Under the pieces are notes generated by a model. The model was not told the DNA's origin and did not search any database. It saw nothing but the letters and a program-made list of their open reading frames with translations. A program made the translations under genes and the position numbers. Positions 3,197 through 50,205 of a stretch of DNA of 64,000 nucleotides are shown in pieces. The DNA comes from a virus. How positions within the stretch are numbered: the stretch's first letter is position 1; each line of letters starts with the position of its first letter. The stretch lies in the IMG/VR virus record IMGVR_UViG_3300020548_000009, positions 20,685 through 84,684 of that record, one strand, 5' to 3'.

Positions 3197-3659
3197 GGGC
3201 TACTTTCTTGATAAATGCAATATCTTCTGGATGGACAATATAGTCGACAATGTTCCTATACCTCAAGAAGGATGCCCTGATGTTCCACGTCCTTTTGTTT
3301 TCGATTCCCCAAAAGCGTCCGACTATCGCCCTGACCTGTTCTGGGAATCCACCCCAAATCCCTTGTGGCTCAAACTCCAGGGAGTACAAAAAGCACTCTT
3401 GGCGGATAGGGCAAGAGCGGCACATCTCAATGGCTTCTCTTCGCTTTGACACTTGGTCTTTTGTGTAGTGCCCGTTCACCTGAGAGGGGAAGAACATTGA
3501 GGTGTCTTGACCTTCGCAGGCGCCGCCGCGCGGCGCTTTCTGATTTCCTTCAACCAGATATTTGTTGTTCTGAAGAAACAGGTCTTGCGGTACCTGCATT
3601 CGAAACTTTGGGTCCGGGCTAAATGCTCCGTTTTCGCGCATTCGATTTTGTGTGGTCAT
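3105..3659 (-). CDS. whiB: WhiB-family Fe-S transcriptional regulator
   Basis: AC...FFP...CRSCPIRQEC...GIWGG with four Cys. Confidence 0.9.
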   Translation of the reverse strand: MTTQNRMRENGAFSPDPKFRMQVPQDLFLQNNKYLVEGNQKAPRGGACEGQDTSMFFPSQVNGHYTKDQVSKRREAIEMCRSCPIRQECFLYSLEFEPQGIWGGFPEQVRAIVGRFWGIENKRTWNIRASFLRYRNIVDYIVHPEDIAFIKKVAHDKNLAQPPFDERSGLSATARRRISQGLVD

Positions 3660-35061: not shown

Positions 35062-35936
35062 TACCAAATCCTTGATACGAGTGTGTGTAGGTGAGAACTG
35101 CCAGATGGGTCTTTTTTGTTGGCAAAAGCCAAAACATCCTCACGGAGTGAAGGCATGTACACATTAGTGGCCGATGAGTTAACCGAAGGGTCCACTACAT
35201 ATTCTCCAACTGCCTGATTTGGCGTTCCGTGCGCATACCAGCCCAAGTACGAGTACCTGTGCCCTCCAGTGACGGTTCTCACTTCGTGTCCTGCAACATA
35301 GTTGGAAGGAAACATCAGCACGTCACCCTTTTGTGGCTTGTATGTTATGTTCAAATAATTAAAGTGATGGTGGCCGCCAGTAAAGTTTTTTCCGTCTAAT
35401 TCTTCTTCTGTATCAACGCAATCGTTGAGATAAATCAAACATGAAACACTGTTTCTTGTGGCCAACTGTTGCTTTGGGTGGTCAAAACCATATGCATAGT
35501 CGGCACTCGTATCGCTATGAATCCCCAAGTAAAGTCCGCCCTTTGTTGGCGAATAAGAAACGAAATGCCCCTTAACTTTCCACCACACAACCTTGTAGGC
35601 CAACGGATATTCCCAAAAATAATGAAGCAGGCATTCATCTCTTGTTGATTCAAGCGCGTTAAGCAAGTTGACAACATCGGCATCATTTGATTGGTGCGCC
35701 ACCGAGCATCTGCGGGGCATGTCGCCTGCTGCGTCTTCGGAATAGATATAGTCGCTTTTGTTTGAAAGAATCTTTTCGCCAGTTTCTGGGTCTATTGCCG
35801 GCTTGTACATTGATGGCGAATCAAGGTCTACCAGTTCCTCGGCAATATCAAATACCGAGTCCCAATCCAGGGAGATTGCGTTCTTGAACAAAACTACGCC
35901 ACCGCCCAAGTTCTCTATCAAGCAATTGCTATTCAT
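35061..35936 (-). CDS. 2OG-Fe(II) oxygenase, P4H-like, paralog group A
   Basis: HSD...YLND...FTGG...HEVRTVTGGHRY. Confidence 0.9.
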   Translation of the reverse strand: MNSNCLIENLGGGVVLFKNAISLDWDSVFDIAEELVDLDSPSMYKPAIDPETGEKILSNKSDYIYSEDAAGDMPRRCSVAHQSNDADVVNLLNALESTRDECLLHYFWEYPLAYKVVWWKVKGHFVSYSPTKGGLYLGIHSDTSADYAYGFDHPKQQLATRNSVSCLIYLNDCVDTEEELDGKNFTGGHHHFNYLNITYKPQKGDVLMFPSNYVAGHEVRTVTGGHRYSYLGWYAHGTPNQAVGEYVVDPSVNSSATNVYMPSLREDVLAFANKKDPSGSSHLHTLVSRIW

Positions 35937-36840
35937 TTACAATGTTCCTGCTTTGCGGTAAATATTTTTTAGTGCTTGAACTATGAGTTCTTGTTGGAAC
36001 CCCAGTCATCAATGGCTTTAGTTTACTTGATGAATGCTTTTCACTAATGTACGAAACATAATCGTCAACAATAGTTGGCAGCCAAACCTGGCTTTGCTTG
36101 CCAACCGGGACACTTGGTCCTGGCTGTATGCCTCGTTCGATATGGGCTGAGCCATGCGAAAAATAAGAAATGTAAACGTATCTCTCCCCACTCAGGCATG
36201 GCCTCACTTCATGTGTGCCAAGGTAGTTTGATGGGAATATGAGCAAATCGCCAGATTTTGGTTGATGTACAGAATTGGCATATACGAATTCAATTTCTCC
36301 ACCGCTGTATTCATATTTGCCTAGTTCTTTTTGACTCCCAACGGACGAATTTAAATACAGCAACACACTCAATACATGCCTTGTAGCAAGTTGTAAATCC
36401 GGCTCAAAACCAACTTGATAATTCACTTCGTTGTCGTTGTGAGTCCCCATGCTGCTGCCTGCGCCATAAGCGGCCACATGGCCAGTTTCCGTCCACCATA
36501 TATTTGGGAGAACATGCGGGTACATTTCTATGTACATCAAAAGATGTTCATAGATGGTTTTTTCACATTCATTAAAAAATTCAACCAACTCTTTCGGACT
36601 ATCTTCGTTGATGAAGTCCATGATGTGACTTGCGCTCTTTTTTATGTCTTCAATTTCGTATCTGTGGCCGCTTCTGTTTATCGCATAAGGCTCTTGTCCA
36701 TCCTCATGAACAATGGTGTAATCGTCTTTAATTGCCTTCTCTTTGAGCGATGAAAAATATGGAATAACCAGGTCTTGGTCAACTTCTATAGAATTTGGGA
36801 AACAGACAATGCCCATGCCGTAATTTATTGAAGTTTCCAT
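35929..36840 (-). CDS. 2OG-Fe(II) oxygenase, P4H-like, paralog group A
   Basis: HND...YLN...YSGGE...HEVRPCLSGERY; TAGTAT 6 nt before ATG 36840. Confidence 0.9.
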   Translation of the reverse strand: METSINYGMGIVCFPNSIEVDQDLVIPYFSSLKEKAIKDDYTIVHEDGQEPYAINRSGHRYEIEDIKKSASHIMDFINEDSPKELVEFFNECEKTIYEHLLMYIEMYPHVLPNIWWTETGHVAAYGAGSSMGTHNDNEVNYQVGFEPDLQLATRHVLSVLLYLNSSVGSQKELGKYEYSGGEIEFVYANSVHQPKSGDLLIFPSNYLGTHEVRPCLSGERYVYISYFSHGSAHIERGIQPGPSVPVGKQSQVWLPTIVDDYVSYISEKHSSSKLKPLMTGVPTRTHSSSTKKYLPQSRNIVNE

Positions 36841-36879
36841 ACACAAATACTATATGGGCACAAACCCACAAGCAAGAAT

Positions 36880-37626
36880 CTAATTCTTTACAAAAACCGT
36901 AACCCCGTAAAATTGCGGAAAATGATACGAGGTTCCCGACAAGCCTTTGAGATTTTCATGGAACTGGTAATACGGGTGCCAAGTGTATGAGGACGAGTAC
37001 ATATTTGATGCATCGTTTGTTGCGGAAATAACAAGCGTCCCGCCCGGAGCCAAAGCGTTGACCAACGAATCGAGATACTCCATATCAAACGCCACATCCC
37101 AGGATTGAACTGCAATCATTTCAAATTGTTCATCGATTCCAGAAATAAGTTCTGACTTGTCGTACACCGAGTACCCAAAGGAGGTGTGCTCGTAAACGTT
37201 TTTTAGATTTTTCTCATACATGAAAAGGCCGACATCGTTCACAAAATTTATATTTGCATTTTTGAAACCGTCAAAAACATTTTCTGGCGCCAAAAGAAAA
37301 CGAGACACCGAACTGCTAAGTCCCCCAACAAACAGTATTGATGTTGGTTGCTTGGTGCGAATTAAAAAATCCTCTATTGCCATTTGGGGAATTATCGCGC
37401 CAACCCAAAATTCATCAGTCATGTCTTTTGAAACTCGCCACTGCATTGACACGGTGGACAAACCCACAGCGTTATGGCTCAAGTCAACACTTGCCTCGGC
37501 CATCGTGTTCCAGCACTTGGTTGACCAGTCTTCCATGTTTGTTTTAAATTCATTGGAGACCAGCGACGTGCCAGACGAAGAAAGTTGTGTACTTACCATT
37601 CCGGCGAAAAGGACTTCTGGTTTCAT
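36880..37626 (-). CDS. divergent class I SAM-dependent (O-)methyltransferase-like protein
   Basis: KQPTSILFVG (degenerate motif I), EQFEMIAV, LVNALAPGGTLVI. Confidence 0.55.
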   Translation of the reverse strand: MKPEVLFAGMVSTQLSSSGTSLVSNEFKTNMEDWSTKCWNTMAEASVDLSHNAVGLSTVSMQWRVSKDMTDEFWVGAIIPQMAIEDFLIRTKQPTSILFVGGLSSSVSRFLLAPENVFDGFKNANINFVNDVGLFMYEKNLKNVYEHTSFGYSVYDKSELISGIDEQFEMIAVQSWDVAFDMEYLDSLVNALAPGGTLVISATNDASNMYSSSYTWHPYYQFHENLKGLSGTSYHFPQFYGVTVFVKN

Positions 37627-37925
37627 AGTTCTTTCCCGTATTTAGATACTTGCAAATAGAAAAAAGCATTTCTAAGTTTCGGTATAAAGAAACTGTAATT
37701 GCGATAAATAAATGGATACGCTGGGTCTCTTCCAAATCCAGAATCTTTTGTGGAAAAAGTTTCTCTTAGGGCAGTGATAATTTGACCAATTTCGTAACTT
37801 TCAAAGTTGGCAGGGTCGAGACCGGTAACAAAAAGAATTTCAGCGATGTCTTGCCACAAATCCACAATATGCTTATCTGCGTCAAAAAGTTTTTCTGCTG
37901 AATTGGCAGCACACGACCTTGGCAT
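37623..37925 (-). CDS. small protein with G(L/V)D-motif, paralog 3
   Basis: ILFVTGLDPANFE. Confidence 0.6.
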   Translation of the reverse strand: MPRSCAANSAEKLFDADKHIVDLWQDIAEILFVTGLDPANFESYEIGQIITALRETFSTKDSGFGRDPAYPFIYRNYSFFIPKLRNAFFYLQVSKYGKEL

Positions 37926-37929
37926 ATCT

Positions 37930-38118
37930 TTACTGCTCTTTCGCTAAAAATCGGTCAGTGATATCGCAATTCATCATTTGACCGTTTTTAAATTCCCACT
38001 GCCTTGTGTCTGGGTTCCATTGAGCAACATTGTTCTCATAATCCTTATACCTCAGCATGCGCGGCTTTTCTTCCTTTGCCTCATCTAGGTGAAGTGGAAC
38101 AACTGGCTTTGGAATCAT
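37930..38118 (-). CDS. hypothetical 62-aa protein
   Basis: Tightly packed ORF; QWNPDTRQW. Confidence 0.55.
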   Translation of the reverse strand: MIPKPVVPLHLDEAKEEKPRMLRYKDYENNVAQWNPDTRQWEFKNGQMMNCDITDRFLAKEQ

Positions 38119-38120
38119 GT

Positions 38121-38336
38121 CTAAGAGTCAGAAATCAAAACGTAATTGGCTACTTGACGCTTCAGCGATTCATGAGCAGCATATTCCGAATGCCCCTCTG
38201 GCAAATCGTGGTCGTATGAATCATCAATTGTCGATACGTCGACGCCAAGCGACATGCACAAGACGCCGATTGAGTGCTCAAGAAGTTTTTTTGCTTCTTG
38301 TTTTGCCTTGGCAAGTTGCGCTTCTGAGAGGTTCAT
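38121..38336 (-). CDS. small protein with G(L/V)D-motif, paralog 2
   Basis: LCMSLGVDVSTIDD. Confidence 0.6.
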   Translation of the reverse strand: MNLSEAQLAKAKQEAKKLLEHSIGVLCMSLGVDVSTIDDSYDHDLPEGHSEYAAHESLKRQVANYVLISDS

Positions 38337-38339
38337 TGA

Positions 38340-38588
38340 TTACCCAAGTTTTTCTAGACGTGATTTGAGGGACGCAATCGTTTCAAGTTTTTTCTTTACG
38401 TCCAGTTTCCATTGCTGAACATCTGTCTGGTTCTCGGCGAAAGACTCAGAAAAAGTGGCTTCGTCAAAGGTGTCAACGTCTACCCCGTAGCGAAGCAGTA
38501 CGCCAAATACTTCTGTTTCCTGCGCTGCAATTGCCTCTTCCACAAGGCGCTTTTGTGTCGCTACGTCAATATTTGTGTTGAGTTTCAT
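38340..38588 (-). CDS. small protein with G(L/V)D-motif, paralog 1
   Basis: LLRYGVDVDTFDE; AAGGAG SD. Confidence 0.65.
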   Translation of the reverse strand: MKLNTNIDVATQKRLVEEAIAAQETEVFGVLLRYGVDVDTFDEATFSESFAENQTDVQQWKLDVKKKLETIASLKSRLEKLG

Positions 38589-38669
38589 TGGTCTCCTTTT
38601 AGCCGCGTCTTGACCGTTGTTGATTCAATAATAGCACTGCTACTCAAAAAAAGGCAAAGGTGGCGACGC

Positions 38670-39701
38670 CTATAGCGACTGAACCTTGCCTCGTTTATTG
38701 TTGGCATCAAATACGTCTGAGTGCCTGTACGCCTGCTTCAGGCCATCCTCCCCTTCTAGCGACCTATTTTGGAAAAGGGGATTTGGCTTACCGCTTAACT
38801 CCTCCTCGGATTTACCAAACTCCTCAATGCCACAGTACTTTTTATAATCTTCGTATAATGGCTCTAACCAATGCGGCTCGCACCACGCCTTTACCGTATC
38901 AACGTCGAATACTTCCACGAGCACATTGGGGTCACTGCTTCCTTGAGCGTAAAAAGTTAAATATCCGTACCGATTTCCTTCGGTGACAGTGCGAACGCCA
39001 TGAGTCGCAATGAAATTACATGGAAACACAACTATGTCTCCTGCTTTGGCCTGATACTCAACCCCCAAATAAGGAAAGAATAATTCGCCGCCTGAATACT
39101 GGTTCTCGCCAACCGTTCCCTCATCGACGCAATCGTTGAAATAAGCCATGATTGCAATTGTCTGACGTGCACCCAATTGTCCCTTCGGTATGTACTTCTT
39201 ACCTTTTTCGGCTCTAAAATTTGTGTCGTTGTCATTGTGAACTCCCAAGTAGTTGCCCTTGGAGTATCTCAAAGCATGCCCTCTAGTCCTCCACCAAAGA
39301 GTTGGCAAAACCATTGGAAATTCGTGTATGTATTTCAGTACACATTTATAAATTGAATCTTCCAGATATCGAAAGAAATCAATCATATTTTGTTCGGTGT
39401 TCTCGTTGACAACCTGAAGCACTCTCACCGGCACTTCGTTCATCTGCTCTATGGAGAATTTATTGCCGTCTTCGTTTACGGCATATTTATTTCCTTCTAG
39501 GTCGTAGTCAAATTTCCATCTTTGCTCATGCGCATGCTTCCCTTCTTTGTCAATCCATGGAAGTAATTGTTCTTGATTTACCTTGAAGGCATTTGGAAAT
39601 GCGATTACACCGCCACCAAGTTTGACCATGTCCATAGCCATGATTTCCTTGACTGCTTGGTCATCAATTGTTGGATAATAACCAAAGTATCTATCGTCCA
39701 T
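38670..39701 (-). CDS. 2OG-Fe(II) oxygenase, P4H-like, paralog group A
   Basis: HND...YFND...YSGGELFF...HGVRTVTEGNRY; TATAAT 7 nt before ATG. Confidence 0.9.
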   Translation of the reverse strand: MDDRYFGYYPTIDDQAVKEIMAMDMVKLGGGVIAFPNAFKVNQEQLLPWIDKEGKHAHEQRWKFDYDLEGNKYAVNEDGNKFSIEQMNEVPVRVLQVVNENTEQNMIDFFRYLEDSIYKCVLKYIHEFPMVLPTLWWRTRGHALRYSKGNYLGVHNDNDTNFRAEKGKKYIPKGQLGARQTIAIMAYFNDCVDEGTVGENQYSGGELFFPYLGVEYQAKAGDIVVFPCNFIATHGVRTVTEGNRYGYLTFYAQGSSDPNVLVEVFDVDTVKAWCEPHWLEPLYEDYKKYCGIEEFGKSEEELSGKPNPLFQNRSLEGEDGLKQAYRHSDVFDANNKRGKVQSL

Positions 39702-39717
39702 AAGGCAAATTATAACA

Positions 39718-40425
39718 TTATTGATTTGGAACAGAAATTACAGGAAGTCCTGTGAATGTTGGCCCAATAGTATTGCCATCAGCGTCAAGACCTGTCTTTA
39801 TGCCTTTTGTCCATGTCCATGGACGTTCATTATTGTTGTCGCTCTTTAGTTGTCCATATTTCATTCTTTGTTCCATAAGTTCTTTGTCATCCCATAAATT
39901 TGATACCGAAACGGTCGCATCCGTCATAACCCTGTTGTCGTATATGTTAAAGAAGCAAATTGGCTCACCGGCCTTGAATGTGACAGGCGCGCCAATGACA
40001 TTAATTTTCCAGTTCATTTGAACCTCGTCTGGCCACCAAAATGTAGGAACAGTTGCTGAAAGTGCCTGTGCGTCACTTCTCAAATAGTTTGGCGAACCAG
40101 AAAACCAAGTACTGTAATTTTTTTCTGTTCTCACGACCCAGCCCATTGCAAAAGAAACCATTCCAATTATTGAGCAGTGGACTTGTGTAAAACCGCTTGA
40201 TGTTTTTTCGCCAGACAATATTTTGGGGACTGAGTTGCCGCCATCCCACTGGACAACAACATCCTCACTCAGCACCAGTTCCCAACCTAAAACATTCGCG
40301 ACAGACATTGGCATGCATTGATAAGCATGCTTTTTGTAGGTCTCATCCATCCAGTCTCGCTTGATTCGCGACTGTCTAATTTCTGGCGGGTTTTGTGTCG
40401 TTTTTACAAACTGAACATTTGTCAC
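39718..40425 (-). CDS. DUF6065-like protein
   Basis: RDWMD....HAY.C.P...AN..GWEL...MNW......VTF..GEP.C. Confidence 0.7.
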   Translation of the reverse strand: MTNVQFVKTTQNPPEIRQSRIKRDWMDETYKKHAYQCMPMSVANVLGWELVLSEDVVVQWDGGNSVPKILSGEKTSSGFTQVHCSIIGMVSFAMGWVVRTEKNYSTWFSGSPNYLRSDAQALSATVPTFWWPDEVQMNWKINVIGAPVTFKAGEPICFFNIYDNRVMTDATVSVSNLWDDKELMEQRMKYGQLKSDNNNERPWTWTKGIKTGLDADGNTIGPTFTGLPVISVPNQ

Positions 40426-41111
40426 TGTGATGTGCTCACCCCACGTGTTGCCGCAACTGGAGAATAAGACTGAACCTGCTTGTGGTTCTTGTCGTTGTAG
40501 TCAAACATTGTGACGGCAGAATATTTCACTCCGCTCTGAACTGGAAGTGCTGCGTGAGCGAAAATGTATGTCGATGGGAAGAAAACAATGTCTCCTGCTT
40601 CTGGCTTGAACTTCAAGTCAAAATATGGGAAGAACAGTTCTCCACCTTCATAATCATCGTTTAGATACATGATGGACGATATCGTGCATGTGTAAGAAAA
40701 TCCGTGGTCGGTGTGAGTTTGAAAGTGTTGTTTTGGTCCGTACTTGACGTAATTAATTGCTTCCATCCATTCCATTTTTACGTTGTACATTGACTCATAA
40801 TGACGCAAGCACGGCGTGAGTCTTTCGATTGTGTCTGACCAAATGGCCTTTATTTCCAAGAACTCGCCTGGCGCCTGGTTCGCAAGTTGTTCGCTAATTT
40901 TGCAGTCAAAACAGTCCCTGTAGTCGGGCATCTTTTCCTGGTGTCCGACAAGGGCCTCCATCCACATGTACGGGGGTGTTGTGCTCGTCCCTATCGTCTC
41001 CTCCAAGCGCTCTATCAAACGCAGTTCTTTGGGGAGCATATTTCTGTAGACCATAATCGCGAAGCGAGGGTCTCCAAGATATTCGCACGAAACATTTATG
41101 GCTGAGTTCAT
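40422..41111 (-). CDS. prolyl-4-hydroxylase-like 2OG-Fe(II) oxygenase
   Basis: HTD...YLNDDYEGGELFF...HAALPVQSGVKYS, with the Lys-type 2OG ligand of P4Hs. Confidence 0.9.
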   Translation of the reverse strand: MNSAINVSCEYLGDPRFAIMVYRNMLPKELRLIERLEETIGTSTTPPYMWMEALVGHQEKMPDYRDCFDCKISEQLANQAPGEFLEIKAIWSDTIERLTPCLRHYESMYNVKMEWMEAINYVKYGPKQHFQTHTDHGFSYTCTISSIMYLNDDYEGGELFFPYFDLKFKPEAGDIVFFPSTYIFAHAALPVQSGVKYSAVTMFDYNDKNHKQVQSYSPVAATRGVSTSQ

Positions 41112-43066: not shown

Positions 43067-43630
43067 ATGGGAATAAACCGTGTCGTCGGCCTTGTTTCTC
43101 TTGGAGTAATGGGGTCATCGCTTGCGTCATCATTGCTTTCGTCTGGGCATTCGGTTATATGGGCCTCCCATGGTCGTTCACAAAAAACAATTGACAGGGC
43201 TCGCTCTGTGGGCGCCATTGATGTTGGGACAATCAAAGAACTTTCAGACCGTTCTGATGTAATTATGTCTGTTGGGTTTGGCAATAGCGGGCCAGAAACC
43301 GCAGAACGTTTGATACATGTGGGCTTTGACAAAATTCTTGTTGACTTCAATTCATTGTGGGGAGAGTCATCAGAGCATTCTTTTTATGAGACTGTGGCGC
43401 AAGGTAAGTATGATTACGTTGACGGAGCAATCCATGGATACCCGCTCAACAGTTCTTTTGATAAAGATGGGTTGACTCGCTTGATGCTCCTGCATGGCGA
43501 GCATGCTCAATTTATTGGGTCTCTGTTTACTGATGATATTTGGACAATCATCTACTGTAAAGAAAAGGCAAAAAAGGAAAATAGGATTATGAGCCAACGA
43601 CCGTATAGAACGATGGAGTCGTATACCTAA
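43067..43630 (+). CDS. NAD(P)-binding domain of 6PGD/3-hydroxyisobutyrate dehydrogenase family
   Basis: VGLVSLGVMGSSLA...GHSVIWAS.GRS..T..RA, SDVIMS, YVDGAI.G. Confidence 0.7.
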   Translation: MGINRVVGLVSLGVMGSSLASSLLSSGHSVIWASHGRSQKTIDRARSVGAIDVGTIKELSDRSDVIMSVGFGNSGPETAERLIHVGFDKILVDFNSLWGESSEHSFYETVAQGKYDYVDGAIHGYPLNSSFDKDGLTRLMLLHGEHAQFIGSLFTDDIWTIIYCKEKAKKENRIMSQRPYRTMESYT

Positions 43631-44225
43631 ATCCTTTTGTAATCATTGTTACCCCATGCAGATAATTGACATCACCGGGGTGCATGACGGCCAAGCCTGG
43701 CTTTGGCCTTACCGTGAGGTCGTGTTGTGGATAAAACAAATCTCCGCCTTCAAAATCGTCGTTGTAATAAAACAGAGAGTTGAGGTCATAGTCAACAAAT
43801 GCATTTGGTCTTCCGTCATTCAATTGTTTGTCCGCGTGAGGTTTTTGCTCAATTCCAGGACGCCATTTCATTATTACGGGAGGGCGTTTGCTGACTTTCA
43901 CTTTGTAAAAGTCTTCAATCGTTTTCTGCATTTTGTCAATATATTTGTCAACAAGTATCCATACCTGTTTGTTGAGCCGTTCTAATATCTCGCTACTGCA
44001 CTGTCTGTCGTTCCAATAATCTGCGTTATATAAACAAGTTCCATCTTCGGCGTACACGCTTTCAGCAGAATTGTTCCACTGATTAATGGTTGGGCAAAAC
44101 TCCTGAATAAGTTTCAAATCTTCCAATTCAATAAAATTGTCAATGACAACAATATTTGATGAACTGTTTCCGAAATGTCCCGGCTTGATTTTCCATGGGC
44201 TTTCTGCTGTAACGTCCGTGCTCAT
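43587..44225 (-). CDS. prolyl-hydroxylase-like 2OG-Fe(II) oxygenase resembling prolyl 3-hydroxylases
   Basis: PHAD...DY...YYNDDFEGG...HGVT.IT.G.R. Confidence 0.85.
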   Translation of the reverse strand: MSTDVTAESPWKIKPGHFGNSSSNIVVIDNFIELEDLKLIQEFCPTINQWNNSAESVYAEDGTCLYNADYWNDRQCSSEILERLNKQVWILVDKYIDKMQKTIEDFYKVKVSKRPPVIMKWRPGIEQKPHADKQLNDGRPNAFVDYDLNSLFYYNDDFEGGDLFYPQHDLTVRPKPGLAVMHPGDVNYLHGVTMITKGFRYTTPSFYTVVGS

Positions 44226-44271: not shown

Positions 44272-44763
44272 TCAGCACGGGCCCAATTTTGGATTAAAGC
44301 AGGGTGGGAAATATGGCGGGAAGAAAGGTGGGAAGAATGGCGGGAAGAAAGGTGGGAAGAACGGCGGGAAGTATGGGGGGAAAAAGGGCGGGAAGAACGG
44401 TGGGAAAAACGGAGGGAAAAAAGGCGGAAAATACGGAGGAGTTACCGATGGTGATGCCGCTGAAACATCTGATGGAACGCCATAATTTGTATTTGCGACA
44501 ACCGTAAATGTGTAAGAAGTTCCAGAAGTTAAGCCAGATACGGTTATCGGTGAAGATGAGCCAGTCGCAGTCAAACCGCCAGGGCTTGAGGTCGCCGTAT
44601 ATGTAACTGTTCCCTTGCCAATGTAAGAAGACGGTGTGAAAGCAACGCTTACCTGCTGTGCGTTGTTCGGGTTTGTGTTATTGACAACGGGAACGACCGT
44701 CCCTGTTGGGGACGACGGTGTCGTTGGCTTTTTGCCGCCACTGTCCTTTGGTGCCCTTGCCAT
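44272..44763 (-). CDS. FN3-domain protein with (PP[F/Y/C]F)12 tail, probable fibre-tip/adhesin
   Basis: FN3 (V.FT...YT.T..PGG.T.TG.SSPITV.GL..GT.YTFTV.A); starts 3 nt after the long fibre gene. Confidence 0.8.
   Translation of the reverse strand: MARAPKDSGGKKPTTPSSPTGTVVPVVNNTNPNNAQQVSVAFTPSSYIGKGTVTYTATSSPGGLTATGSSSPITVSGLTSGTSYTFTVVANTNYGVPSDVSAASPSVTPPYFPPFFPPFFPPFFPPFFPPYFPPFFPPFFPPFFPPFFPPYFPPCFNPKLGPC
44296..44439 (-). repeat. 12 x 12-bp coding repeat [PPYF(PPFF)4]2-PPYF-PPCF
   Basis: Direct translation; all four Pro codons and both Phe codons used. Confidence 0.95.
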
Positions 44764-44766
44764 AAA

Positions 44767-47700
44767 TTATGCCGAAATATCTCCTACGAGAACCCACGTA
44801 TTTTCTGCTCGCTTGATAAGCGTAGCATAGGACCACTGTGCTCGCATCTTCAAGCCTGGTGCTGCGTTAATTGTTACCCCACCAGTTGCAACAATTGTTG
44901 TCTGGCCAGCACCTGTCTGCAAAATGTTGATTTGTGAGCCCACAGGGAAGGCAACGGATGAGTTCAGTGGAACGGTCAAGTTGTTTGCAGAGGCAACGTT
45001 CATTTCTACAATCTTGTTCTTATCCGCAAGGACAAGTGTATAACTGGCTGTTTGAGCGTTTGTTGAGATGTCTGCCAATTTGCCAAGTTCAATTGCCGCA
45101 GTCGCGCTTACATCAGCATTAACAATCACGCCGGAAGAAATCGCCGTAACGCCAGATGAGTCAATTGTTATATCGCCGGTTTCCGTTACCCATGTCGGTA
45201 CACCAGATGCGTTGGCAACAATGATTTGTCCAGCAGTTCCGCTAGATACTGCAATTGAGGCACTAGAACCCTCTCCTGGCGTGTGCGTAACCGTAATTAG
45301 GTTGCCAGCAGCAACGTTCGACATATAGTTACCAGTTGTATCTGTCCCTAGGTCAATTGCGTCATTGACCCATGCAGTTCCATTCCATTTCAGGAATTGG
45401 CCAGATGTAGCGCTCGTAATTGTTACGTCAGCGATGTCATCGAGGGAATTGATGGTTGTGCCGCCTGCTGCGTCATTTACCCATGCAGTTCCATTCCATT
45501 TTAGAACTTGACCGGCAGATGCAGATGTAATTGATACGTCACCGATGTCATCGAGTGAAGCAACCGTTTGCCCATCAACATAAAATGTTGTAGCAATGTC
45601 GTAATACGTAGAGCCATCTTCAGTGATTTCCCACTTATCGCTTGTTTCATTCCAGCGGACGGCAACGTTTGCCGACGTTCCACGTTCAACTTCAATACCA
45701 GCATTCTGTGATGGCGCGCTTGTCTCATTGCTATTGAGAACAATGATGTTGTCAGCGAGATTGATTGTCTCCGTATTGACAGTCGTTGTCGTTCCATTGA
45801 TTGTTAAATCTCCGCCAACAGTGACGTTTCCAGTTGTGGTGATTTGAGCAAATTGAACCGAAGCGGAAGTGCCAACAGCCTGACCGATTGCAACTGTGGG
45901 GCTTGAACCCTCTCCTGGGGTGTGGCTAACGGTTACACCAGTTCCTGCGGTTACATCAGAAACATAATTTCCTGTTGTGTCTGTCCCTAGGGCAACTGAG
46001 TTAGCCGCGATTGTTGCGTTTATGGTTACATTAGAGGAACCATTAAATGAAGCAGAACCACTCAGGTCACCGCCCAGAGAGATTGTGCGAGATGTGGCAA
46101 GGGCCGTTGCGGTAGACGCATTGCCGATAAGTGGAGCCGTGACTGCCGCAAATGTCACCGATGATGAAGTGCCAACAGCCTGACCAATGGCAATCGTCGG
46201 GCTTGAGCCTTCGCCAGGAGTATGTGTGACGGTGACACCAGTGCCTGCGGTTACATCAGAAACATAGTTTCCTGTTGTGTCGGTGCCAAGAGCAACGCTG
46301 TTCGGCTCAACTGCCGCAGTGATTGTTACATCCGATGTTCCGTTAAACGACACCGAACCGCTGAGGTCTCCACCAAGAGAGATTGTTCGAGCATTCTGAA
46401 GAGCGGTCGCCGTTCCAGAATTTCCTGTCACATCGCCTGTTATGTTGCCTGTTACCGGCGCAGAAACATGTGCAAATGTGACAGACGATGAAGTCCCAAC
46501 ATCTTGGCCAATTGCAATTGTTGCGTTTGAGCCTTCTGCCGGAGTATGTGTAATTGCAACACCCGTACCAGCAGTGAGGTCAGACATGTAGTTTCCGGTC
46601 GTATCTGTTCCGAGCGCAACTGAGTTCGCTGCAATAGTCGCAGTGATTGAAGCATTTGTAGAGCCATCAAAAGAAACCGAACCAGTTACATCGCCAGAAA
46701 GGCTTATCGTCCTTGCGTTTTGCAACGTTGTGGCTGTTGATGCATTACCAACAAGATTTGCGCTTACAGTATTGAATGTAACCGATGCGCTTGTCGCCAC
46801 ATCTTGACCGATAGACAGTGTGTTTCCCGTCTTCGTAATTCCTGTACCGGCAACAATGTTTGCAGCACCAGTAAACTGCGTAAAGGTTATTGCGTCAGTA
46901 CCGATGATGTGAGCACCACCTGTTCCTGTTCCCTCTGAATTGATAATAAAACCTTGGTTGATATGCGTTGCGCCGTTTGCAACATAAACAGCATCTCCGC
47001 GTACAACTTCATCAAGGTTTCCATCATGGTCAGATGAGCGAGTAAGAATCCATGCTGCAGAAACCGAGCCCTGATTTGTTACATCATAAATTCCGTTATG
47101 AACACTATTTGCCTGATTCTGCACCAAGACTCTGTCGCCGGTTGTCGCATTTACTCCGTCAATAATGAGTCGCGCACTTGCGCTAGCGGTAAGGGTCGCA
47201 CCAACACCACTTGTTCCATTGTCGTAAGTTGGTGAGTTCGGCAGAACCGCCGCTGTCGCGAGTTCCACGGAATCGTGCCAGTTGATTCCCGCTGCTATTG
47301 AGTCGGCGTACGACTTTGTAACTGCGTGGGTTGTTTCAGTCGGCTGACCAGTGAGTGTAAGGACAGCGAATGTTGGCGATGCTGATGTTGCAACACTTTG
47401 AGGAATGGATATTGTCGCCGTTGAGCCTTCGCTTGGAGTGTGGCTGATTGTGATTCCTGTTCCAGCGGTCACATCAACCATGTAGTTGCCGACGGTGTCG
47501 GTGCCGAGGTTAATTTGGTCGTTAATCCAGACAGATGATGCGCTGTTCCACATCAAGACATCTTTGTCAACCTTGCCGTTGGTCTTGACATCATGCAGTT
47601 CATTCAGTTCATATCCGTTCTGAACTGCAACATAGATGATTCCGTTGTTTGTTGCACGAACGACAACGCCGATGAACACTGTGTTCAGCGGAGCAGAAGG

Positions 47701-50205
47701 CTTAGTGGTGGTGACACCACCATTTGTTCCAAGCCACAGGATGTCGCCGACGCTGTAGGCAGAAAGGTTAATTCCATCGACATATCCGCGTGTGATGACT
47801 GGACCGTTTTGGTTCGACGCAACTGCCGTACCCATAACGCCGACAGTCTTGGAAGACGTTGTCTCCAGCGCATTATCGGCGCGCTTGACCGAAGCATGGT
47901 CGCCGTTTCCACCAAAGAGGTATACAACTGTGCCTGATGCAAGTGTCGTTGCTTCCGCATTGCGGACATACGAGACAACCGGTGTGTATGTCGGAACCCA
48001 GCCAGAACCGTCGTAGGCAAGGGCCTGGAATTCTTCTGGTGTCCCAACAACCACATCGTTGAGGTCGTTCAATGATGCATTCAGGGCAACCGATGCGCTA
48101 GAGCCCTCACCGGGTGTATGGGTAACCGTGATAGCAGAGCCAGCAACAATGTCGTTGACGTAATTGCCGGTTGTATCGGTACCGAGGGCTACAGAGTTTG
48201 GCTGAACCGTTGCGGTAATCGTGACATCAGCAGTTCCGTTGAAGGATGCAGAGCCAGACAAATCGCCCGAGAGAGAAATTGCGCGCGAAGTCTGCAGCGA
48301 GGTTGCTGTGTCAGCATTTCCAGTCAGATTTCCGGTGACATTACCCGTTACGTTCCCCGTTACTGGCGCAGAGACGTGCGCGAATGTCACAGATGACGAT
48401 GTTCCGACATCCTGTCCGATTGCTACCGTTGGAGAAGAACCTTCGCCAGGAGTGTGCGTTACAGTAACGCCCGTTCCAGCGGTCAAATCATTGACATAGT
48501 TGCCAGTCGTGTCTGTTCCGAGTTCAATAGCCCCAAGTGCAGCGATGTCACCGTATGTGGTGCCGTCGTTCGTGAACTCCCATTGGTCGTTTGTTTCGTT
48601 CCAGCGAATTAGAACATTTGCTGAAGTTCCGCGCTCAACTTCAATTCCAGCATTTTCTGTTGGTGAGCCAGTGACATTGCTATTCAGAACAACAATGTTG
48701 TCCTCAATCGCCAGTGTCTCTGTGTTTAGGGTGGTTGTGGTTCCGTTTACTGTCAGGTTTCCGCCAACAGTGATGTCGCCAGTTGTGTCAAGTTTTGCGA
48801 AAGTAACCGATGCGCTAGTTGCTACAGACTGACCGATTGCGATTGTTGGGCTTGAGCCCTCTGCCGGCGTGTGTGTAACGGTTACACCAGTGCCAGCGAC
48901 AACATCTGAAACATAGTTTCCTACGGTGTCAGTCCCGAGGTTGATTGTGTCGTTTACCCATACGGTTGAGGCGCTGTTATAGCGCAGGAATTGACCGTCT
49001 GTTGGAGATGTCAAAAGAACATCATGCAAATCTTGAATGTGCTCACCTACAGATGGCCTTACAAGCAAAACGCCAGTTGATGCATTCCTGACAACTAGAG
49101 TTGCAACAAGAACCGAATGACGCGGAGCAACGTTTGTCAGTTTGCCAGCGACTGTTGGGTGAACATAGAGAAGGTCTCCAACAGCCCATGTTTCATCGCC
49201 AACGCTGATTGCTGTTGAAGAATTTCCTCTTGTGTCAAGTCCTCTTACAAAACCAAAAGTTTGAACAAATCCACTGCCGCCATTGGTTATTGATTCAGTT
49301 GCAAGTCCAATAAAACTTTCTTCACGGATAGTTCCATCTGCAGTATATGGAAATACTTCAACTTTTCCGTCTTCCTCTACCCCGGAAGCGTAAAGCGCAG
49401 TGCCTTTTTGAATTTGCGAACCAGTTGTGTTGCGAACACGGAATACCGATTCCTCTCCAAGATGTATGTGTTTATCTGCTGTCAAGCCAAGATTGAGTGT
49501 TCCCTCAACAGAATCCCATGTAAGCATTCCAGCAGCAGGTGCCACACTCGCTGTTGTATCAAACTGAACGGAATCGATATCTGATAGCGAGTCAACCGTC
49601 AAGCCACCAGAGAAAGTGATTGATGTTCCATCACTCGTGATTTCTGCCCCACCAAGATTGATGCTTGTGCCAGACAAATAGATATCCCTGAATCGCGCCG
49701 AAGCAGAGCCAAGGTCGTATGCTTCTGTTGTGCTTGGAATTACATGACCGGCAATATTTGTTTGACCATTTACCGTAAGTTGACCAAACGAAACTGATGC
49801 GGAAGTGCCCACATCTTGCCCGATTGCAATAGAGGCAGTTGAACCTTCGCCTGGGGTGTGAGTGACGGTGACACCAGTGCCGCCAGCCACATCGACCATG
49901 TAGTTGCCGACGGTGTCGGTTGAAAGGTTTACGGCGTCGTTAATCCAGACGGAAGCGGAACTGTCGTAACGCAAAAAATCCCCACCGCTGACGCTGGTGA
50001 TGGTTACATCACTAAGGTCATTCAGTGAACTAAGGGAAATCGGGATAACCGTATACGAAAGCGAATTCCATGCTGTAGTGCCGTCGCCAATTTTGACTTT
50101 TTTCGTGTCGGTTTCAAAACCGATTTCACCCGCGTAAAGAACAGGGTTATTGCTTGTCCAAGATGAGGCTGTACCGCGCTTGACCTGAATCCTTGCTCCA
50201 GCCAT
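44767..50205 (-). CDS. long fibre protein (Mtd-N-like N-terminus, nine internal repeats)
   Basis: RIQVKRGT...NPVL..GEIGFETDT...KIGDG; nine TDT.GNY...G..(V/I)...HTP.EGS repeats; 1812 aa Thr/Gly/Ser-rich. Confidence 0.85.
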   Translation of the reverse strand: MAGARIQVKRGTASSWTSNNPVLYAGEIGFETDTKKVKIGDGTTAWNSLSYTVIPISLSSLNDLSDVTITSVSGGDFLRYDSSASVWINDAVNLSTDTVGNYMVDVAGGTGVTVTHTPGEGSTASIAIGQDVGTSASVSFGQLTVNGQTNIAGHVIPSTTEAYDLGSASARFRDIYLSGTSINLGGAEITSDGTSITFSGGLTVDSLSDIDSVQFDTTASVAPAAGMLTWDSVEGTLNLGLTADKHIHLGEESVFRVRNTTGSQIQKGTALYASGVEEDGKVEVFPYTADGTIREESFIGLATESITNGGSGFVQTFGFVRGLDTRGNSSTAISVGDETWAVGDLLYVHPTVAGKLTNVAPRHSVLVATLVVRNASTGVLLVRPSVGEHIQDLHDVLLTSPTDGQFLRYNSASTVWVNDTINLGTDTVGNYVSDVVAGTGVTVTHTPAEGSSPTIAIGQSVATSASVTFAKLDTTGDITVGGNLTVNGTTTTLNTETLAIEDNIVVLNSNVTGSPTENAGIEVERGTSANVLIRWNETNDQWEFTNDGTTYGDIAALGAIELGTDTTGNYVNDLTAGTGVTVTHTPGEGSSPTVAIGQDVGTSSSVTFAHVSAPVTGNVTGNVTGNLTGNADTATSLQTSRAISLSGDLSGSASFNGTADVTITATVQPNSVALGTDTTGNYVNDIVAGSAITVTHTPGEGSSASVALNASLNDLNDVVVGTPEEFQALAYDGSGWVPTYTPVVSYVRNAEATTLASGTVVYLFGGNGDHASVKRADNALETTSSKTVGVMGTAVASNQNGPVITRGYVDGINLSAYSVGDILWLGTNGGVTTTKPSAPLNTVFIGVVVRATNNGIIYVAVQNGYELNELHDVKTNGKVDKDVLMWNSASSVWINDQINLGTDTVGNYMVDVTAGTGITISHTPSEGSTATISIPQSVATSASPTFAVLTLTGQPTETTHAVTKSYADSIAAGINWHDSVELATAAVLPNSPTYDNGTSGVGATLTASASARLIIDGVNATTGDRVLVQNQANSVHNGIYDVTNQGSVSAAWILTRSSDHDGNLDEVVRGDAVYVANGATHINQGFIINSEGTGTGGAHIIGTDAITFTQFTGAANIVAGTGITKTGNTLSIGQDVATSASVTFNTVSANLVGNASTATTLQNARTISLSGDVTGSVSFDGSTNASITATIAANSVALGTDTTGNYMSDLTAGTGVAITHTPAEGSNATIAIGQDVGTSSSVTFAHVSAPVTGNITGDVTGNSGTATALQNARTISLGGDLSGSVSFNGTSDVTITAAVEPNSVALGTDTTGNYVSDVTAGTGVTVTHTPGEGSSPTIAIGQAVGTSSSVTFAAVTAPLIGNASTATALATSRTISLGGDLSGSASFNGSSNVTINATIAANSVALGTDTTGNYVSDVTAGTGVTVSHTPGEGSSPTVAIGQAVGTSASVQFAQITTTGNVTVGGDLTINGTTTTVNTETINLADNIIVLNSNETSAPSQNAGIEVERGTSANVAVRWNETSDKWEITEDGSTYYDIATTFYVDGQTVASLDDIGDVSITSASAGQVLKWNGTAWVNDAAGGTTINSLDDIADVTITSATSGQFLKWNGTAWVNDAIDLGTDTTGNYMSNVAAGNLITVTHTPGEGSSASIAVSSGTAGQIIVANASGVPTWVTETGDITIDSSGVTAISSGVIVNADVSATAAIELGKLADISTNAQTASYTLVLADKNKIVEMNVASANNLTVPLNSSVAFPVGSQINILQTGAGQTTIVATGGVTINAAPGLKMRAQWSYATLIKRAENTWVLVGDISA

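What the first reader, a model, noticed from the sequence alone, without database searches (positions are those of the whole stretch)
44272..44439. Ordered aromatic polyproline array [PPYF(PPFF)4]2-PPYF-PPCF with a Cys-closed C-terminus
Seen: Tyr recurs every fifth unit, codons are synonymously scrambled, and the tail ends PPCFNPKLGPC. Inference: the array is selected at protein level rather than being recent slippage. A 48-residue Pro/aromatic tract is very hydrophobic and could be an adhesive or self-assembling element. Phe/Tyr could also be hydroxylation or cross-linking sites, which might explain the several oxygenase paralogs.
Basis: partly seen in the sequence, partly recalled or inferred. 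Interest (0 to 1): 0.75.

Follow-up and report, generated by a model that had tools for sequence, protein, structure and literature searches.

The report
Phage fibre Pro-Phe tail with hydroxylases
An uncultured lake phage, probably of actinobacteria, ends a small tail-fibre-linked protein in twelve strictly conserved Pro-Pro-Phe/Tyr-Phe units, and such tails always sit next to collagen-type proline-hydroxylase-like genes, so they are probably the enzymes' substrate, though no chemistry has been shown.

Summary
ORF 44272-44763 (-) encodes 163 aa: a Lys/Pro-rich N-terminus, an FN3 domain, PPYF(PPFF)4-PPYF(PPFF)4-PPYF-PPCF, then NPKLGPC.

The array is selected at protein level. Against 12-unit orthologues, pN/pS is 0.01-0.04 for the array and 0.15-0.18 for the FN3 part, with near-saturated synonymous change.

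The "Tyr every fifth unit" order is not conserved. Close relatives have Tyr at units 1,4,11 or 1,6,7,11. What is conserved is PPYF first, a non-aromatic cap unit last, 12 units and the Cys pair.

The gene is translationally coupled to the 1812-aa fibre gene (TAA-TTT-ATG). It belongs to a large family of uncultured-phage proteins: FN3 x1-5 plus (PP[FYH]F)3-30.

- Every Pro-rich-tailed family member has P4H/P3H-like oxygenases downstream (53 of 53).
- 15 of 19 members without such a tail have none.
- Every close orthologue of the downstream oxygenase (43587-44225) with enough flank has a PPxF protein upstream.
- A second pairing, PPV[TV] arrays with a two-domain oxygenase, holds in 11 of 11 loci on unrelated carrier proteins.

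Best reading: a hydroxylase-modified polyproline-II rod at the fibre tip. Hydroxylation is inferred, not shown. This scan has found the same system before on other DNA. I found no published description.

The parts
44272..44763 (-). Gene for the 163-aa FN3-(PPxF)12 protein: N-terminal KDSGGKKP motif, FN3 domain, aromatic Pro-Pro array and Cys-containing tail
   Evidence: ORF and translation. 663 homologues at E<=1e-3. 373 viral-contig relatives.
44470..44670 (-). FN3 domain (residues 32-98)
   Evidence: Pfam fn3 E 4.5e-5, 24 bits, just under the 25-bit cut-off. AF2 pLDDT is above 90 over this part. Foldseek top hit is the FN3 of chitinase A1, 1k85, TM 0.83.
44296..44439 (-). Array of 12 PPxF units: PPYF(PPFF)4 PPYF(PPFF)4 PPYF PPCF, residues 109-156
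   Evidence: pN/pS 0.01-0.04 against orthologous 12-unit arrays. AF2 models it as extended with no DSSP secondary structure, pLDDT 52-74.
44275..44295 (-). C-terminal tail NPKLGPC. Its last Cys, with the Cys of the PPCF cap unit, forms a conserved Cys pair.
   Evidence: Relatives end PPCF-NPKLGPC, PPCF-KFAPC or PPCF-KFNNGPC.
44761..44769 (-). Junction TAA-TTT-ATG between the fibre gene stop and the start of the FN3-PPxF gene (translational coupling)
   Evidence: The junction ...GD[IL]SA*-NNN-ATG is conserved in most related loci. Others have TAATG or ATGA overlaps in other frames, which argues against read-through.
44767..50205 (-). 1812-aa tail fibre gene (Mtd_N N-terminus, repetitive fibre body, conserved C-terminus ...WVLVGDISA)
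   Evidence: Pfam Mtd_N E 1.3e-15. PHROG tail-fibre and minor-tail families. Homologues lie upstream of the FN3 gene in related loci.
43587..44225 (-). 212-aa 2OG-Fe(II) oxygenase of prolyl-hydroxylase type, 46 nt downstream of the array gene. It is the enzyme type paired with PPxF arrays.
   Evidence: - Invariant H130-x-D132, H190 and R200 in 15 orthologues.
- PDB profile hits: P3H1 7e-8, B. anthracis P4H 7e-7.
- AF2 pLDDT 91; Foldseek top hits P3H1, BaP4H, PBCV-1 vCPH, PHD2.
- Close orthologues always have a PPxF protein upstream.
34198..41111 (-). Rest of the oxygenase island: five PF13640 oxygenases (40422-41111, 38670-39701, 35929-36846, 35061-35936, 34198-35067), DUF6065 (39718-40425) and a conserved 248-aa protein (36880-37626)
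   Evidence: Pfam. PHROG 61. Orthologues of 40422, DUF6065 and 36880 follow PPxF genes in most related loci.
31986..34190 (-). Two GT-B-like glycosyltransferase genes at the end of the island. They could glycosylate hydroxylated residues; this is inferred only.
   Evidence: PHROG 7162 E 1e-31 and 4e-29. Weak Pfam Glyco_trans_1_4 hits. Orthologues are present in L006 and L008.
14274..17834 (-). Second carrier: 1186-aa tail-tip (Tal-like) protein ending in PVxPVx repeats, a Cys knot, (PPVT)11 at 14334-14489, and a Cys-rich tail
12030..13385 (-). 451-aa oxygenase with a C-terminal PF13640 domain, paired with PPV[TV] arrays
   Evidence: Pfam E 5e-16. All 11 loci with an orthologue and enough flank have a PPV[TV]-array protein ending 760-980 nt upstream, on Tal-like or FN3 carriers.

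Best explanation
The 163-aa protein is a small accessory subunit of the long tail fibre. It is made in step with the fibre by translational coupling.

Its FN3 domain carries a 48-residue Pro-Pro-aromatic-Phe array. The array most likely forms an extended polyproline-II-type rod about 15 nm long. The rod has a fixed start (PPYF), a fixed cap (PPCF) and a C-terminal Cys pair. The Cys pair may clasp chains by disulfides once outside the cell.

The array is the dedicated substrate of the prolyl-hydroxylase-type 2OG/Fe(II) oxygenase encoded 46 nt downstream, and probably of further paralogues in the 10-kb island. Hydroxylation in the infected cell, most likely of proline, would do three things:
- bias the twelve aromatic-Pro peptide bonds to trans and stabilise the polyproline-II form;
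- make an otherwise extremely hydrophobic tract soluble;
- possibly give attachment sites for the two glycosyltransferases.

The finished rod occupies the position where sister phages carry other swappable distal modules (lectin-like Lcl_C, Gly-rich domains, DUF7483). It therefore probably contacts the host envelope.

Shown: the sequence, its conservation and selection, the gene coupling, the family, the co-occurrence with oxygenases, and the enzyme class.

Inferred: the polyproline-II rod, presence in the virion, the hydroxylation itself and its target atom, glycosylation and host contact.
For: 1. Protein-level constraint. Array pN/pS is 0.01-0.04, against 0.15-0.18 for the FN3 part.

2. A defined architecture across 63 distinct arrays. 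First unit PPYF in 50 of 63. Internal X is only F, Y or H. The last unit has a non-aromatic X and is followed by K (26), a short tail ending in K (8) or a Cys-containing tail (18).

3. Fibre linkage. The gene follows a fibre gene with the conserved end GD[IL]SA*, as TAA-NNN-ATG, TAATG or ATGA.

4. Co-occurrence among 72 scorable FN3-family loci:
- Pro-rich tail with oxygenase: 53.
- Neither: 15.
- Tail without oxygenase: 0.
- Oxygenase without tail: 4. One of these is a truncated PPxF gene and two have poly-Thr plus PPSF plus a Cys domain.

5. Reverse search. Of the 71 newly fetched loci with >=72%-identical orthologues of the downstream oxygenase, all 57 with at least 2.3 kb of upstream flank have a PPxF protein 0.2-3.5 kb upstream. 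The other 14 have 2.1 kb or less.

6. Type-specific pairing on unrelated carriers. PPV[TV] arrays go with the two-domain oxygenase in 11 of 11 loci. Carriers are either Tal-like or FN3 proteins. No other oxygenase lies within 6 kb.

7. Enzyme class. HxD...H...R is invariant. Profile hits and Foldseek top hits are all protein prolyl or lysyl hydroxylases: P3H1, B. anthracis P4H, PBCV-1 vCPH, PHD2, Chlamydomonas P4H, LH3.

8. AF2 models the array as extended and non-regular next to a confident FN3.

9. Sister phages carry other distal modules at the same position.

10. From established knowledge: viral and algal P4Hs hydroxylate polyproline-II-type Pro-rich repeats (Eriksson et al. 1999, cited in PMC7019647).
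Against: - No chemistry, expression or virion data exist for any member. No RNA holder was listed.
- The co-occurrence rests on few independent evolutionary events. There are about 7 changes of repeat state and 6 of oxygenase state on the FN3 tree. The independent-pairs test is underpowered, with 3 supported pairs.
- Orthologue-based searches sample related phages, so shared ancestry explains part of the pattern.
- Regions downstream of fibre genes collect accessory genes in many phages.
- For PBCV-1, whose P4H works on Pro-rich peptides in vitro, an unpublished analysis cited in PMC7019647 (ref. 162) found no hydroxyproline in virions.
- Iyer et al. 2010 (PMC2938197) proposed secondary-metabolite roles for tandem phage dioxygenases.
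- The AF2 confidence for the array is only 52-74.
- A gene directly after a fibre gene is also the classic position of a fibre assembly chaperone.
Confidence: 0.55

Rival explanations
1. The array is an unmodified structural element, either a rigid spacer or a hydrophobic adhesin at the fibre tip. The neighbouring oxygenases act on something else: host proteins, small molecules, or only other phage proteins. They lie beside it because both belong to the same inherited accessory region.
For: - Few independent co-transitions.
- Iyer et al. 2010 proposed metabolite roles for phage dioxygenase arrays.
- No hydroxyproline was found in PBCV-1 virions (ref. 162 of PMC7019647).
- The island also holds an NAD-binding and a GSHPx-like gene on the other strand.
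Against: - Repeat type and oxygenase type are paired one to one in two separate modules, and on unrelated carriers.
- Sister phages with the same fibre/FN3 cassette but other C-terminal modules lack oxygenases, 15 of 19.
- The oxygenase gene often starts 4-46 nt after the array gene.
Confidence: 0.25
2. The protein is a tail-fibre assembly chaperone, like lambda/Mu Tfa or T4 gp38. It helps the 1812-aa fibre fold, and the array is a transient binding surface rather than a virion part.
For: It lies immediately downstream of the fibre gene and is translationally coupled to it. It is small.
Against: - No PHROG or Pfam chaperone family matches.
- Members carry 1-5 FN3 domains and swappable distal modules such as Lcl_C and DUF7483. 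These are typical of exposed fibre parts.
- The extracellular-type Cys-rich ends also point to an exposed part.
Confidence: 0.12
3. The array is a slippage-prone low-complexity tract with no sequence-specific role. It is tolerated junk, or a length-variable contingency tract.
For: - Unit number ranges from 3 to 30 in the family.
- A sister clade differs by whole 36-nt blocks, with 21, 24, 27 and 30 units and some identical adjacent blocks.
- There is one 25-nt internal exact repeat in the window.
Against: - pN/pS is 0.01-0.04 with saturated synonymous sites.
- 12 units are kept in three relatives whose paired oxygenases are 91-94% identical to the window's.
- The first and cap units are fixed, and only F, Y or H occur at position 3.
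Confidence: 0.03

Closest known systems
Chlorovirus PBCV-1 prolyl 4-hydroxylase (vCPH, PDB 5c5t) and that virus's Pro-rich repeat ORFs (Eriksson et al. 1999, J Biol Chem 274:22131, as cited in PMC7019647)
   Same: A virus-encoded 2OG/Fe(II) prolyl-hydroxylase-type enzyme together with virus-encoded Pro-rich short tandem repeats. The window's oxygenase model matches 5c5t (Foldseek E 2.9e-9; profile E 0.029).
   Different: - The host is a eukaryotic alga, not a bacterium.
- The PBCV-1 repeats are PAPK-type rather than aromatic PPxF (my recollection of Eriksson 1999).
- PBCV-1 has one enzyme rather than eight paralogues.
- No enzyme-substrate gene adjacency is described there.
- There activity was shown in vitro, but no hydroxyproline was found in virions. 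Here nothing has been assayed.
Tandem dioxygenase array of Synechococcus phage Syn9 (Iyer, Abhiman, de Souza and Aravind 2010, PMC2938197)
   Same: Many tandem, mutually divergent classical 2OG/Fe(II) dioxygenase genes in a phage genome, with unknown substrates.
   Different: - Syn9 is a T4-like cyanophage. Its array includes a JmjC/MINA member and tryptophan halogenases.
- Its array was proposed to make secondary metabolites.
- No repeat protein was linked to it.
- Here the arrays sit directly behind Pro-rich repeat tails of fibre or tail-tip proteins, and I found no halogenase.
Plant and algal hydroxyproline-rich glycoproteins (extensins) with their P4Hs and glycosyltransferases
   Same: Contiguous Pro residues in polyproline-II rods with interspersed Tyr. 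There is a P4H-type enzyme (Foldseek hit to Chlamydomonas P4H 2jig) and glycosyltransferases in the same system.
   Different: - There is no Ser-Pro(3-5) motif.
- Half of the residues are Phe or Tyr.
- The context is a bacteriophage.
- No secretory pathway is involved.
- Modification is unproven.
Collagen-like phage tail fibre segments and the B. anthracis P4H (PDB 3itq/5hv0)
   Same: Pro-rich extended helical repeats in phage fibres. A bacterial P4H is the second-best sequence and fold match of the oxygenase.
   Different: The array has no Gly at every third residue, so it cannot form a collagen triple helix. It has a 4-residue unit, not a 3-residue unit.
T-even gp38-type fibre-tip adhesins with a polyglycine-II sandwich (Salmonella phage S16; from my own knowledge, not checked here)
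   Same: A small protein encoded right after the distal fibre gene. It sits at the fibre tip and is built from left-handed extended helices.
   Different: The gp38 helices are Gly-rich, not Pro/aromatic. There is no sequence similarity and no associated oxygenases.

Membership tests
Fibronectin type III domain (Pfam PF00041) | Sequence match to the fn3 profile at or above the gathering score | tested here: inconclusive
   E 4.5e-5 and 24.0 bits against a cut-off of 25. Many homologues carry a precomputed PF00041 hit.
Fibronectin type III domain (Pfam PF00041) | Seven-strand beta-sandwich fold | tested here: met
   The AF2 model has pLDDT above 90 over residues 40-110 and six or more strands. 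All Foldseek top hits are FN3 domains; the best is 1k85, TM 0.83, E 2.9e-5.
Collagen-like triple helix | Gly at every third residue (Gly-X-Y) | tested here: not met
   The 48-residue array has no Gly. Its unit is 4 residues.
Prolyl/lysyl hydroxylase-type 2OG-Fe(II) oxygenases (PF13640, P4Hc) - for the paired enzyme 43587-44225 | HxD...H iron triad and a basic 2OG-binding residue | tested here: met
   H130, D132, H190 and R200 are invariant in 15 orthologues.
Prolyl/lysyl hydroxylase-type 2OG-Fe(II) oxygenases (PF13640, P4Hc) - for the paired enzyme 43587-44225 | Profile match above the Pfam cut-off | tested here: not met
   PF13640 gives 20.1 bits against a cut-off of 27 for this paralogue. 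Seven other genes in the contig pass the cut-off. A PDB profile search gives P3H1 at 7e-8 and BaP4H at 7e-7.
Prolyl/lysyl hydroxylase-type 2OG-Fe(II) oxygenases (PF13640, P4Hc) - for the paired enzyme 43587-44225 | Double-stranded beta-helix fold closest to protein prolyl hydroxylases | tested here: met
   AF2 pLDDT 91. Foldseek top hits are 8k0m (P3H1), 3itq, 5c5t, PHD2 and 2jig, with E from 9e-10 to 2e-8.
Prolyl/lysyl hydroxylase-type 2OG-Fe(II) oxygenases (PF13640, P4Hc) - for the paired enzyme 43587-44225 | Hydroxylation of peptidyl proline | not testable with these tools
   This needs an enzyme assay or mass spectrometry.
Hydroxyproline-rich glycoprotein (extensin-like) system | Ser-Pro(3-5) repeats, Hyp formation and Hyp O-glycosylation | tested here: not met
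   The sequence motif is absent. P4H-like genes and GT genes are present. The chemistry is not testable.
Tail fibre assembly chaperone (Tfa / gp38-like) | Match to known chaperone or adhesin families | tested here: not met
   No PHROG family at E<=0.01. Pfam gives only fn3.
Uncultured-phage FN3-(PPxF)n fibre-associated family (unnamed) | N-terminal GGKKP motif, at least one FN3, a C-terminal PP[FYH]F array, and a gene directly after a fibre gene ending GD[IL]SA | tested here: met
   The nearest members are 79% identical (L004, L005).
Syn9-type tandem phage dioxygenase array (Iyer et al. 2010) | Several tandem divergent 2OGFeDO genes together with a JmjC/MINA member and halogenases | tested here: inconclusive
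   Tandem divergent 2OGFeDOs are present. No halogenase or JmjC hit appeared among the ORFs I scanned. I did not scan every ORF.

The most novel reading that the evidence does not exclude
Freshwater actinophage-like viruses run a dedicated virion-protein tailoring system. Batteries of prolyl-hydroxylase-type oxygenases, each type matched to its own Pro-Pro-X-X repeat (PPxF or PPV[TV]), convert fibre and tail-tip tails into hydroxylated and perhaps glycosylated polyproline-II rods. This would be a phage counterpart of extensins or mussel adhesive proteins. It would also give the first substrate for the orphan tandem dioxygenases of aquatic phages.
Probability: 0.4. Interest if true: 0.85.

Novelty: new variant of a known kind. 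Interest (0 to 1): 0.68.

Why it matters
Tandem 2OG/Fe(II) oxygenase genes have been noted in aquatic phage genomes since 2010 without a known substrate (PMC2938197). This window offers a concrete and cheap test. The candidate substrate is a 163-aa protein, or short PPYF/PPFF and PPVT peptides. The candidate enzymes are two matched oxygenase types that allow a built-in specificity cross-check.

If confirmed, it would be the first post-translational hydroxylation system for bacteriophage virion proteins. It would add a new kind of protein rod, an aromatic polyproline array, whose solubility and shape depend on modification. It would also give a new handle on how uncultured lake phages recognise their hosts.

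If refuted, the array still stands as an unusually constrained repeat whose structure is unknown.

Tried and rejected
- Read-through fusion of the fibre and the FN3 protein. The two are in frame, separated by TAA-TTT. Rejected because related loci use TAATG or ATGA overlaps in other frames.
- Five-unit Tyr period as a designed order. Rejected. TRF found no 60-nt period.
- Collagen-like helix. Rejected because there is no Gly.
- An artefact of the opposite-strand ORF 44304-44507 (+). That ORF is only the complement of the repeat.
- tblastn of the protein against 50,697 phage records: no match. The paired oxygenase has only distant hits, at most 41% identity, in marine viruses and S-SKS1. So no cultured relative is known.
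Neighbourhoods came from the search for related loci instead.
- A single-sequence search for relatives of the 12030-13385 oxygenase found nothing. A two-sequence alignment then worked.
- The treekit independent-pairs test was underpowered, with 3 supported pairs.
- ESM Atlas: no usable hit.
- Sequencing runs: the DNA stands in freshwater and lake metagenomes of 2016, 2020 and 2024. These may include the source sample. No RNA holder was listed.
- Read laying: the three raw-read runs laid no reads. One contig run holds the stretch unchanged. This gave no information on length polymorphism.
- The genome-contig scan returned only generic FN3 domains of diverse bacteria. None of the 79 loci has a PPxF or PPxx array. 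This gave no host clue.
- DUF6065 has no solved relative.
- A possible link between Cys-rich tails and the four longer oxygenases was looked at and found inconsistent.
- Paper searches found no description of PPFF-type arrays or of hydroxylated phage fibres.
Full report
**What is there.** The minus-strand ORF 44272-44763 encodes 163 residues:
- a Lys/Pro/Ser-rich N-terminus (MARAPKDSGGKKPTTP...);
- an FN3 domain;
- the array PPYF(PPFF)4-PPYF(PPFF)4-PPYF-PPCF (residues 109-156, window 44296-44439);
- the tail NPKLGPC.

The FN3 assignment rests on three results. Pfam gives E 4.5e-5, one bit under the cut-off. AF2 gives pLDDT above 90. The Foldseek top hit is the FN3 of chitinase A1, TM 0.83. AF2 draws the array as extended with no regular secondary structure, at pLDDT 52-74.

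**Context.** The window is the last 64 kb of an 84.7-kb IMG/VR contig. CheckV rates it 64% complete.

The minus strand carries a siphovirus-type structural module:
- protease, major capsid protein and head-tail adaptors;
- fibre-like proteins, including an 1812-aa fibre with an Mtd_N start;
- a 1638-aa tape-measure protein and a 1186-aa tail-tip protein.

The host is probably a freshwater actinobacterium. The nearest capsid proteins are those of Brevibacterium and Gordonia phages, at about 45% identity. The contig encodes a WhiB-like protein. The DNA stands in freshwater and lake metagenomes.

**Selection on the array.** The twelve 12-nt units are 76% identical on average, and only 1 of 66 unit pairs is identical. 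One 25-nt exact internal repeat is slightly longer than a codon-random null predicts (16.8 +/- 3.9, P = 0.04). So one small recent duplication is possible.

The decisive test is the comparison with orthologous 12-unit arrays in L084 and L086:
- array: pN/pS 0.010-0.039 at pS 0.53-0.88;
- N-terminus plus FN3: pN/pS 0.15-0.18.

The only amino-acid changes in the array are F<->Y. The array is therefore under stronger purifying selection than the folded domain beside it. This assumes an in-register alignment, which is natural because all three arrays have 12 units.

**The ordered Tyr pattern.** It does not hold up.
- Near relatives have Tyr at units 1,4,11 (L084/L085) or 1,6,7,11 (L086/L087), against 1,6,11 in the window.
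- Across 63 distinct arrays, Tyr-Tyr spacings are mostly 1 (73 times) or 3 (48 times). A spacing of 5 occurs only 5 times.

What is conserved is the following:
- a PPYF first unit (50 of 63);
- only F, Y or H at position 3 inside the array;
- a last "cap" unit with a non-aromatic residue, followed by a single Lys (26 of 63), a short tail ending in Lys (8) or a Cys-containing tail (18);
- in this sub-clade, 12 units and a Cys pair (PPCF, 4-7 residues, then a C-terminal Cys).

A spacing of three units equals 12 residues. That is four turns of a polyproline-II helix, so it would line all Tyr hydroxyls on one face. In the sister clade, arrays of 21, 24, 27 and 30 units differ by whole 36-nt blocks. 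This fits a polyproline-II rod. It could equally be a by-product of 36-nt block duplication.

**The family.** The large protein collection holds 663 relatives at E <= 1e-3. IMG/VR holds 373. The common plan is as follows:
- an N-terminal GGKKP motif;
- one to five FN3 domains;
- (PP[FYH]F)3-30.

Variants have PFF/PPFF mixtures, PNF or PSFG units, or PPVT units (L007).

The same N-terminus and FN3 also occur with quite different C-terminal modules. These include Lcl_C lectin-like domains, DUF7483, Gly-rich domains and a roughly 170-aa domain ending ALYGIKG. The array therefore occupies a swappable distal position.

The gene always follows a fibre gene whose product ends W.L.GD[IL]SA. The junction is TAA-NNN-ATG in most loci, as here, and TAATG or ATGA in others. 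That pattern means translational coupling, not read-through.

**Link to the oxygenases.** The window encodes an oxygenase 46 nt after the array gene (43587-44225). Five more PF13640 oxygenases follow within 10 kb, together with DUF6065, a conserved 248-aa protein and two glycosyltransferase-like genes. The contig has seven PF13640 hits over the cut-off, plus the 43587 paralogue.

*First test.* In the 80 loci found through the FN3 protein, 72 could be scored.

| Pro-rich tail | Oxygenase downstream | Loci |
|---|---|---|
| yes | yes | 53 |
| no | no (at least 3 kb of flank) | 15 |
| yes | no | 0 |
| no | yes | 4 |

Of the last four, one is a truncated PPxF gene and two carry poly-Thr plus PPSF plus a Cys-rich domain.

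*Second test.* The reverse search used a profile of the 43587 orthologues. It found 549 loci, of which the best 80 (at least 72% identical) were kept. Of the 71 that were new, all 57 with at least 2.3 kb of upstream flank have a PPxF protein 0.2-3.5 kb upstream. The 14 without one have 2.1 kb or less.

*Third test.* This is the most telling one. The window's tail-tip protein ends in (PPVT)11 plus a Cys-rich tail. It is followed 0.9 kb later by a different, two-domain oxygenase (12030-13385).
- All 11 loci with an orthologue of that enzyme and enough flank have a PPV[TV] array ending 760-980 nt upstream.
- The carriers are of two unrelated kinds, Tal-like proteins and FN3 proteins.
- No other oxygenase type lies within 6 kb.

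So repeat type and enzyme type travel as matched pairs.

*Caveat.* On a tree of the first FN3 domain there are only about 7 changes of repeat state and 6 of oxygenase state. The independent-pairs test has too few pairs to reach significance. Shared ancestry explains part of the raw counts.

**Enzyme class.** Fifteen orthologues of the 43587 enzyme keep H130-x-D132, H190 and R200.
- Their profile matches human P3H1 (7e-8), B. anthracis P4H (7e-7), PiuC, LH3 and PBCV-1 P4H.
- The AF2 model has pLDDT 91.
- Its best Foldseek matches are P3H1, B. anthracis P4H, PBCV-1 vCPH, PHD2 and Chlamydomonas P4H.

The enzyme is therefore a protein prolyl/lysyl-hydroxylase-type dioxygenase. Which atom it attacks cannot be told from sequence.

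**Most likely mechanism (inference).** The protein has no signal peptide. It would therefore meet the soluble oxygenases in the infected cell before assembly.

A run of twelve aromatic-Pro junctions is prone to cis peptide bonds and is extremely hydrophobic. From established proline chemistry, 4R-hydroxylation favours the trans bond and the polyproline-II form and adds polarity. Hydroxyl groups could then be glycosylated by the two transferases.

The result would be a rod of about 15 nm (48 residues at 3.1 Å each) on an FN3 stalk at the fibre. After lysis it would be clasped by the Cys pair in oxic water. The rod would present a regular row of aromatic rings, and perhaps hydroxyls or sugars, to the host envelope.

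**Rivals.**
- An unmodified spacer or adhesin whose neighbouring oxygenases have other targets (0.25).
- A fibre assembly chaperone (0.12).
- A functionless slippage tract (0.03, largely excluded).

**Literature.** Iyer et al. 2010 (PMC2938197) described the tandem dioxygenase array of phage Syn9 and proposed secondary-metabolite roles. For some bacterial operons they proposed collagen-like or tail-collar proteins as substrates. They named no phage repeat protein.

The chlorovirus review PMC7019647 cites the PBCV-1 P4H work of Eriksson et al. 1999. It also cites an unpublished finding that PBCV-1 virions lack hydroxyproline.

My searches found no paper on PPFF-type arrays or on hydroxylated phage fibres. 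No cultured phage has a close relative of either gene.

**Earlier notes of this scan.** The same system was found before on other DNA, in at least eight followed-up windows from other genomes. Their conclusions match mine. Two first-reader notes on this window flag the island and the PPVT module.

New in this report:
- the pN/pS measurement;
- the rejection of the five-unit Tyr order;
- the start and cap grammar of the arrays;
- the conserved coupling junction;
- the test of the PPV[TV]/two-domain-oxygenase pairing on unrelated carriers.

**Verdict.** The array is real and strongly selected. It belongs to a large, unnamed family of phage fibre-associated proteins. The specific ordered Tyr pattern is incidental. 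The proposed hydroxylation is well supported by genomic association and enzyme class, but it is chemically unproven.

Noticed in passing
window 14274-17834 (-) and 12030-13385 (-): The 1186-aa tail-tip protein ends in PVxPVx repeats, a Cys knot, (PPVT)11 and a Cys-rich tail. A two-domain PF13640 oxygenase follows 0.9 kb downstream. The same pairing holds in 11 of 11 related loci, on Tal-like or FN3 carriers.
   Followed up: yes
window 44761-44769 and loci L004-L083: Fibre genes end in a conserved W.L.GD[IL]SA motif. The FN3 gene starts 3 nt after the TAA stop (TAA-NNN-ATG) or overlaps it (TAATG or ATGA). The GGAGA that encodes Gly-Asp lies about 16 nt upstream of the ATG.
   Followed up: partly
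L156:3781-5289 and L158:3650-5275: These proteins alternate (APVT)n or (PPVV/PPVT)n rods with small four-Cys knots of the form C.PGD[IV]GF.GC..PG.C(7-8)C, like beads on a string. The same knot ends the PPVT protein of L007/L164.
   Followed up: no
L005, L147, L004, L114: In a sister clade, arrays of (PPYF PPFF PPFF)n have 21, 24, 27 and 30 units. They differ by whole 36-nt blocks, and some adjacent blocks are identical. L004 and L005 have identical FN3 parts. Array length is evolvable in 12-residue steps.
   Followed up: partly
window 3105-3659 (-): A WhiB-like gene (PF02467, E 1.4e-14) points to an actinobacterial host. So do the nearest capsid relatives, which are Brevibacterium and Gordonia phages at about 45% identity.
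   Followed up: partly
window 43067-43630 (+) and 41161-42024 (+): Two opposite-strand genes lie inside the oxygenase island. One is an NAD(P)-binding 6PGDH/F420-oxidoreductase-like protein. The other is a glutathione-peroxidase-like (thioredoxin-fold) protein. They may supply redox support for the Fe(II) enzymes.
   Followed up: no
window 1405-2016 (+): A further PF13640 oxygenase (E 2e-16) lies in the early region, 30 kb from the island and on the other strand.
   Followed up: no
L043, L057, L041/L045, L079: FN3 proteins with long Cys-rich C-terminal domains lack the 43587-type orthologue. Instead they are followed by orthologues of the four longer oxygenases (38670, 35929, 35061, 34198). 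Other Cys-tailed members (L006, L034, L065) do not follow this pattern, so no rule emerged.
   Followed up: partly
window 44296-44439: Phe codons in the array are TTC in 15 of 20 cases. Large genes of the window use TTT in 63% of Phe codons. The array may avoid long T runs. Twelve consecutive Pro-Pro motifs also imply strong dependence on elongation factor P.
   Followed up: no
window 39718-40425 (-): A DUF6065 protein (E 3e-43) is conserved next to the oxygenases in most PPxF loci. It has no solved relative by sequence. Its role is unknown.
   Followed up: partly
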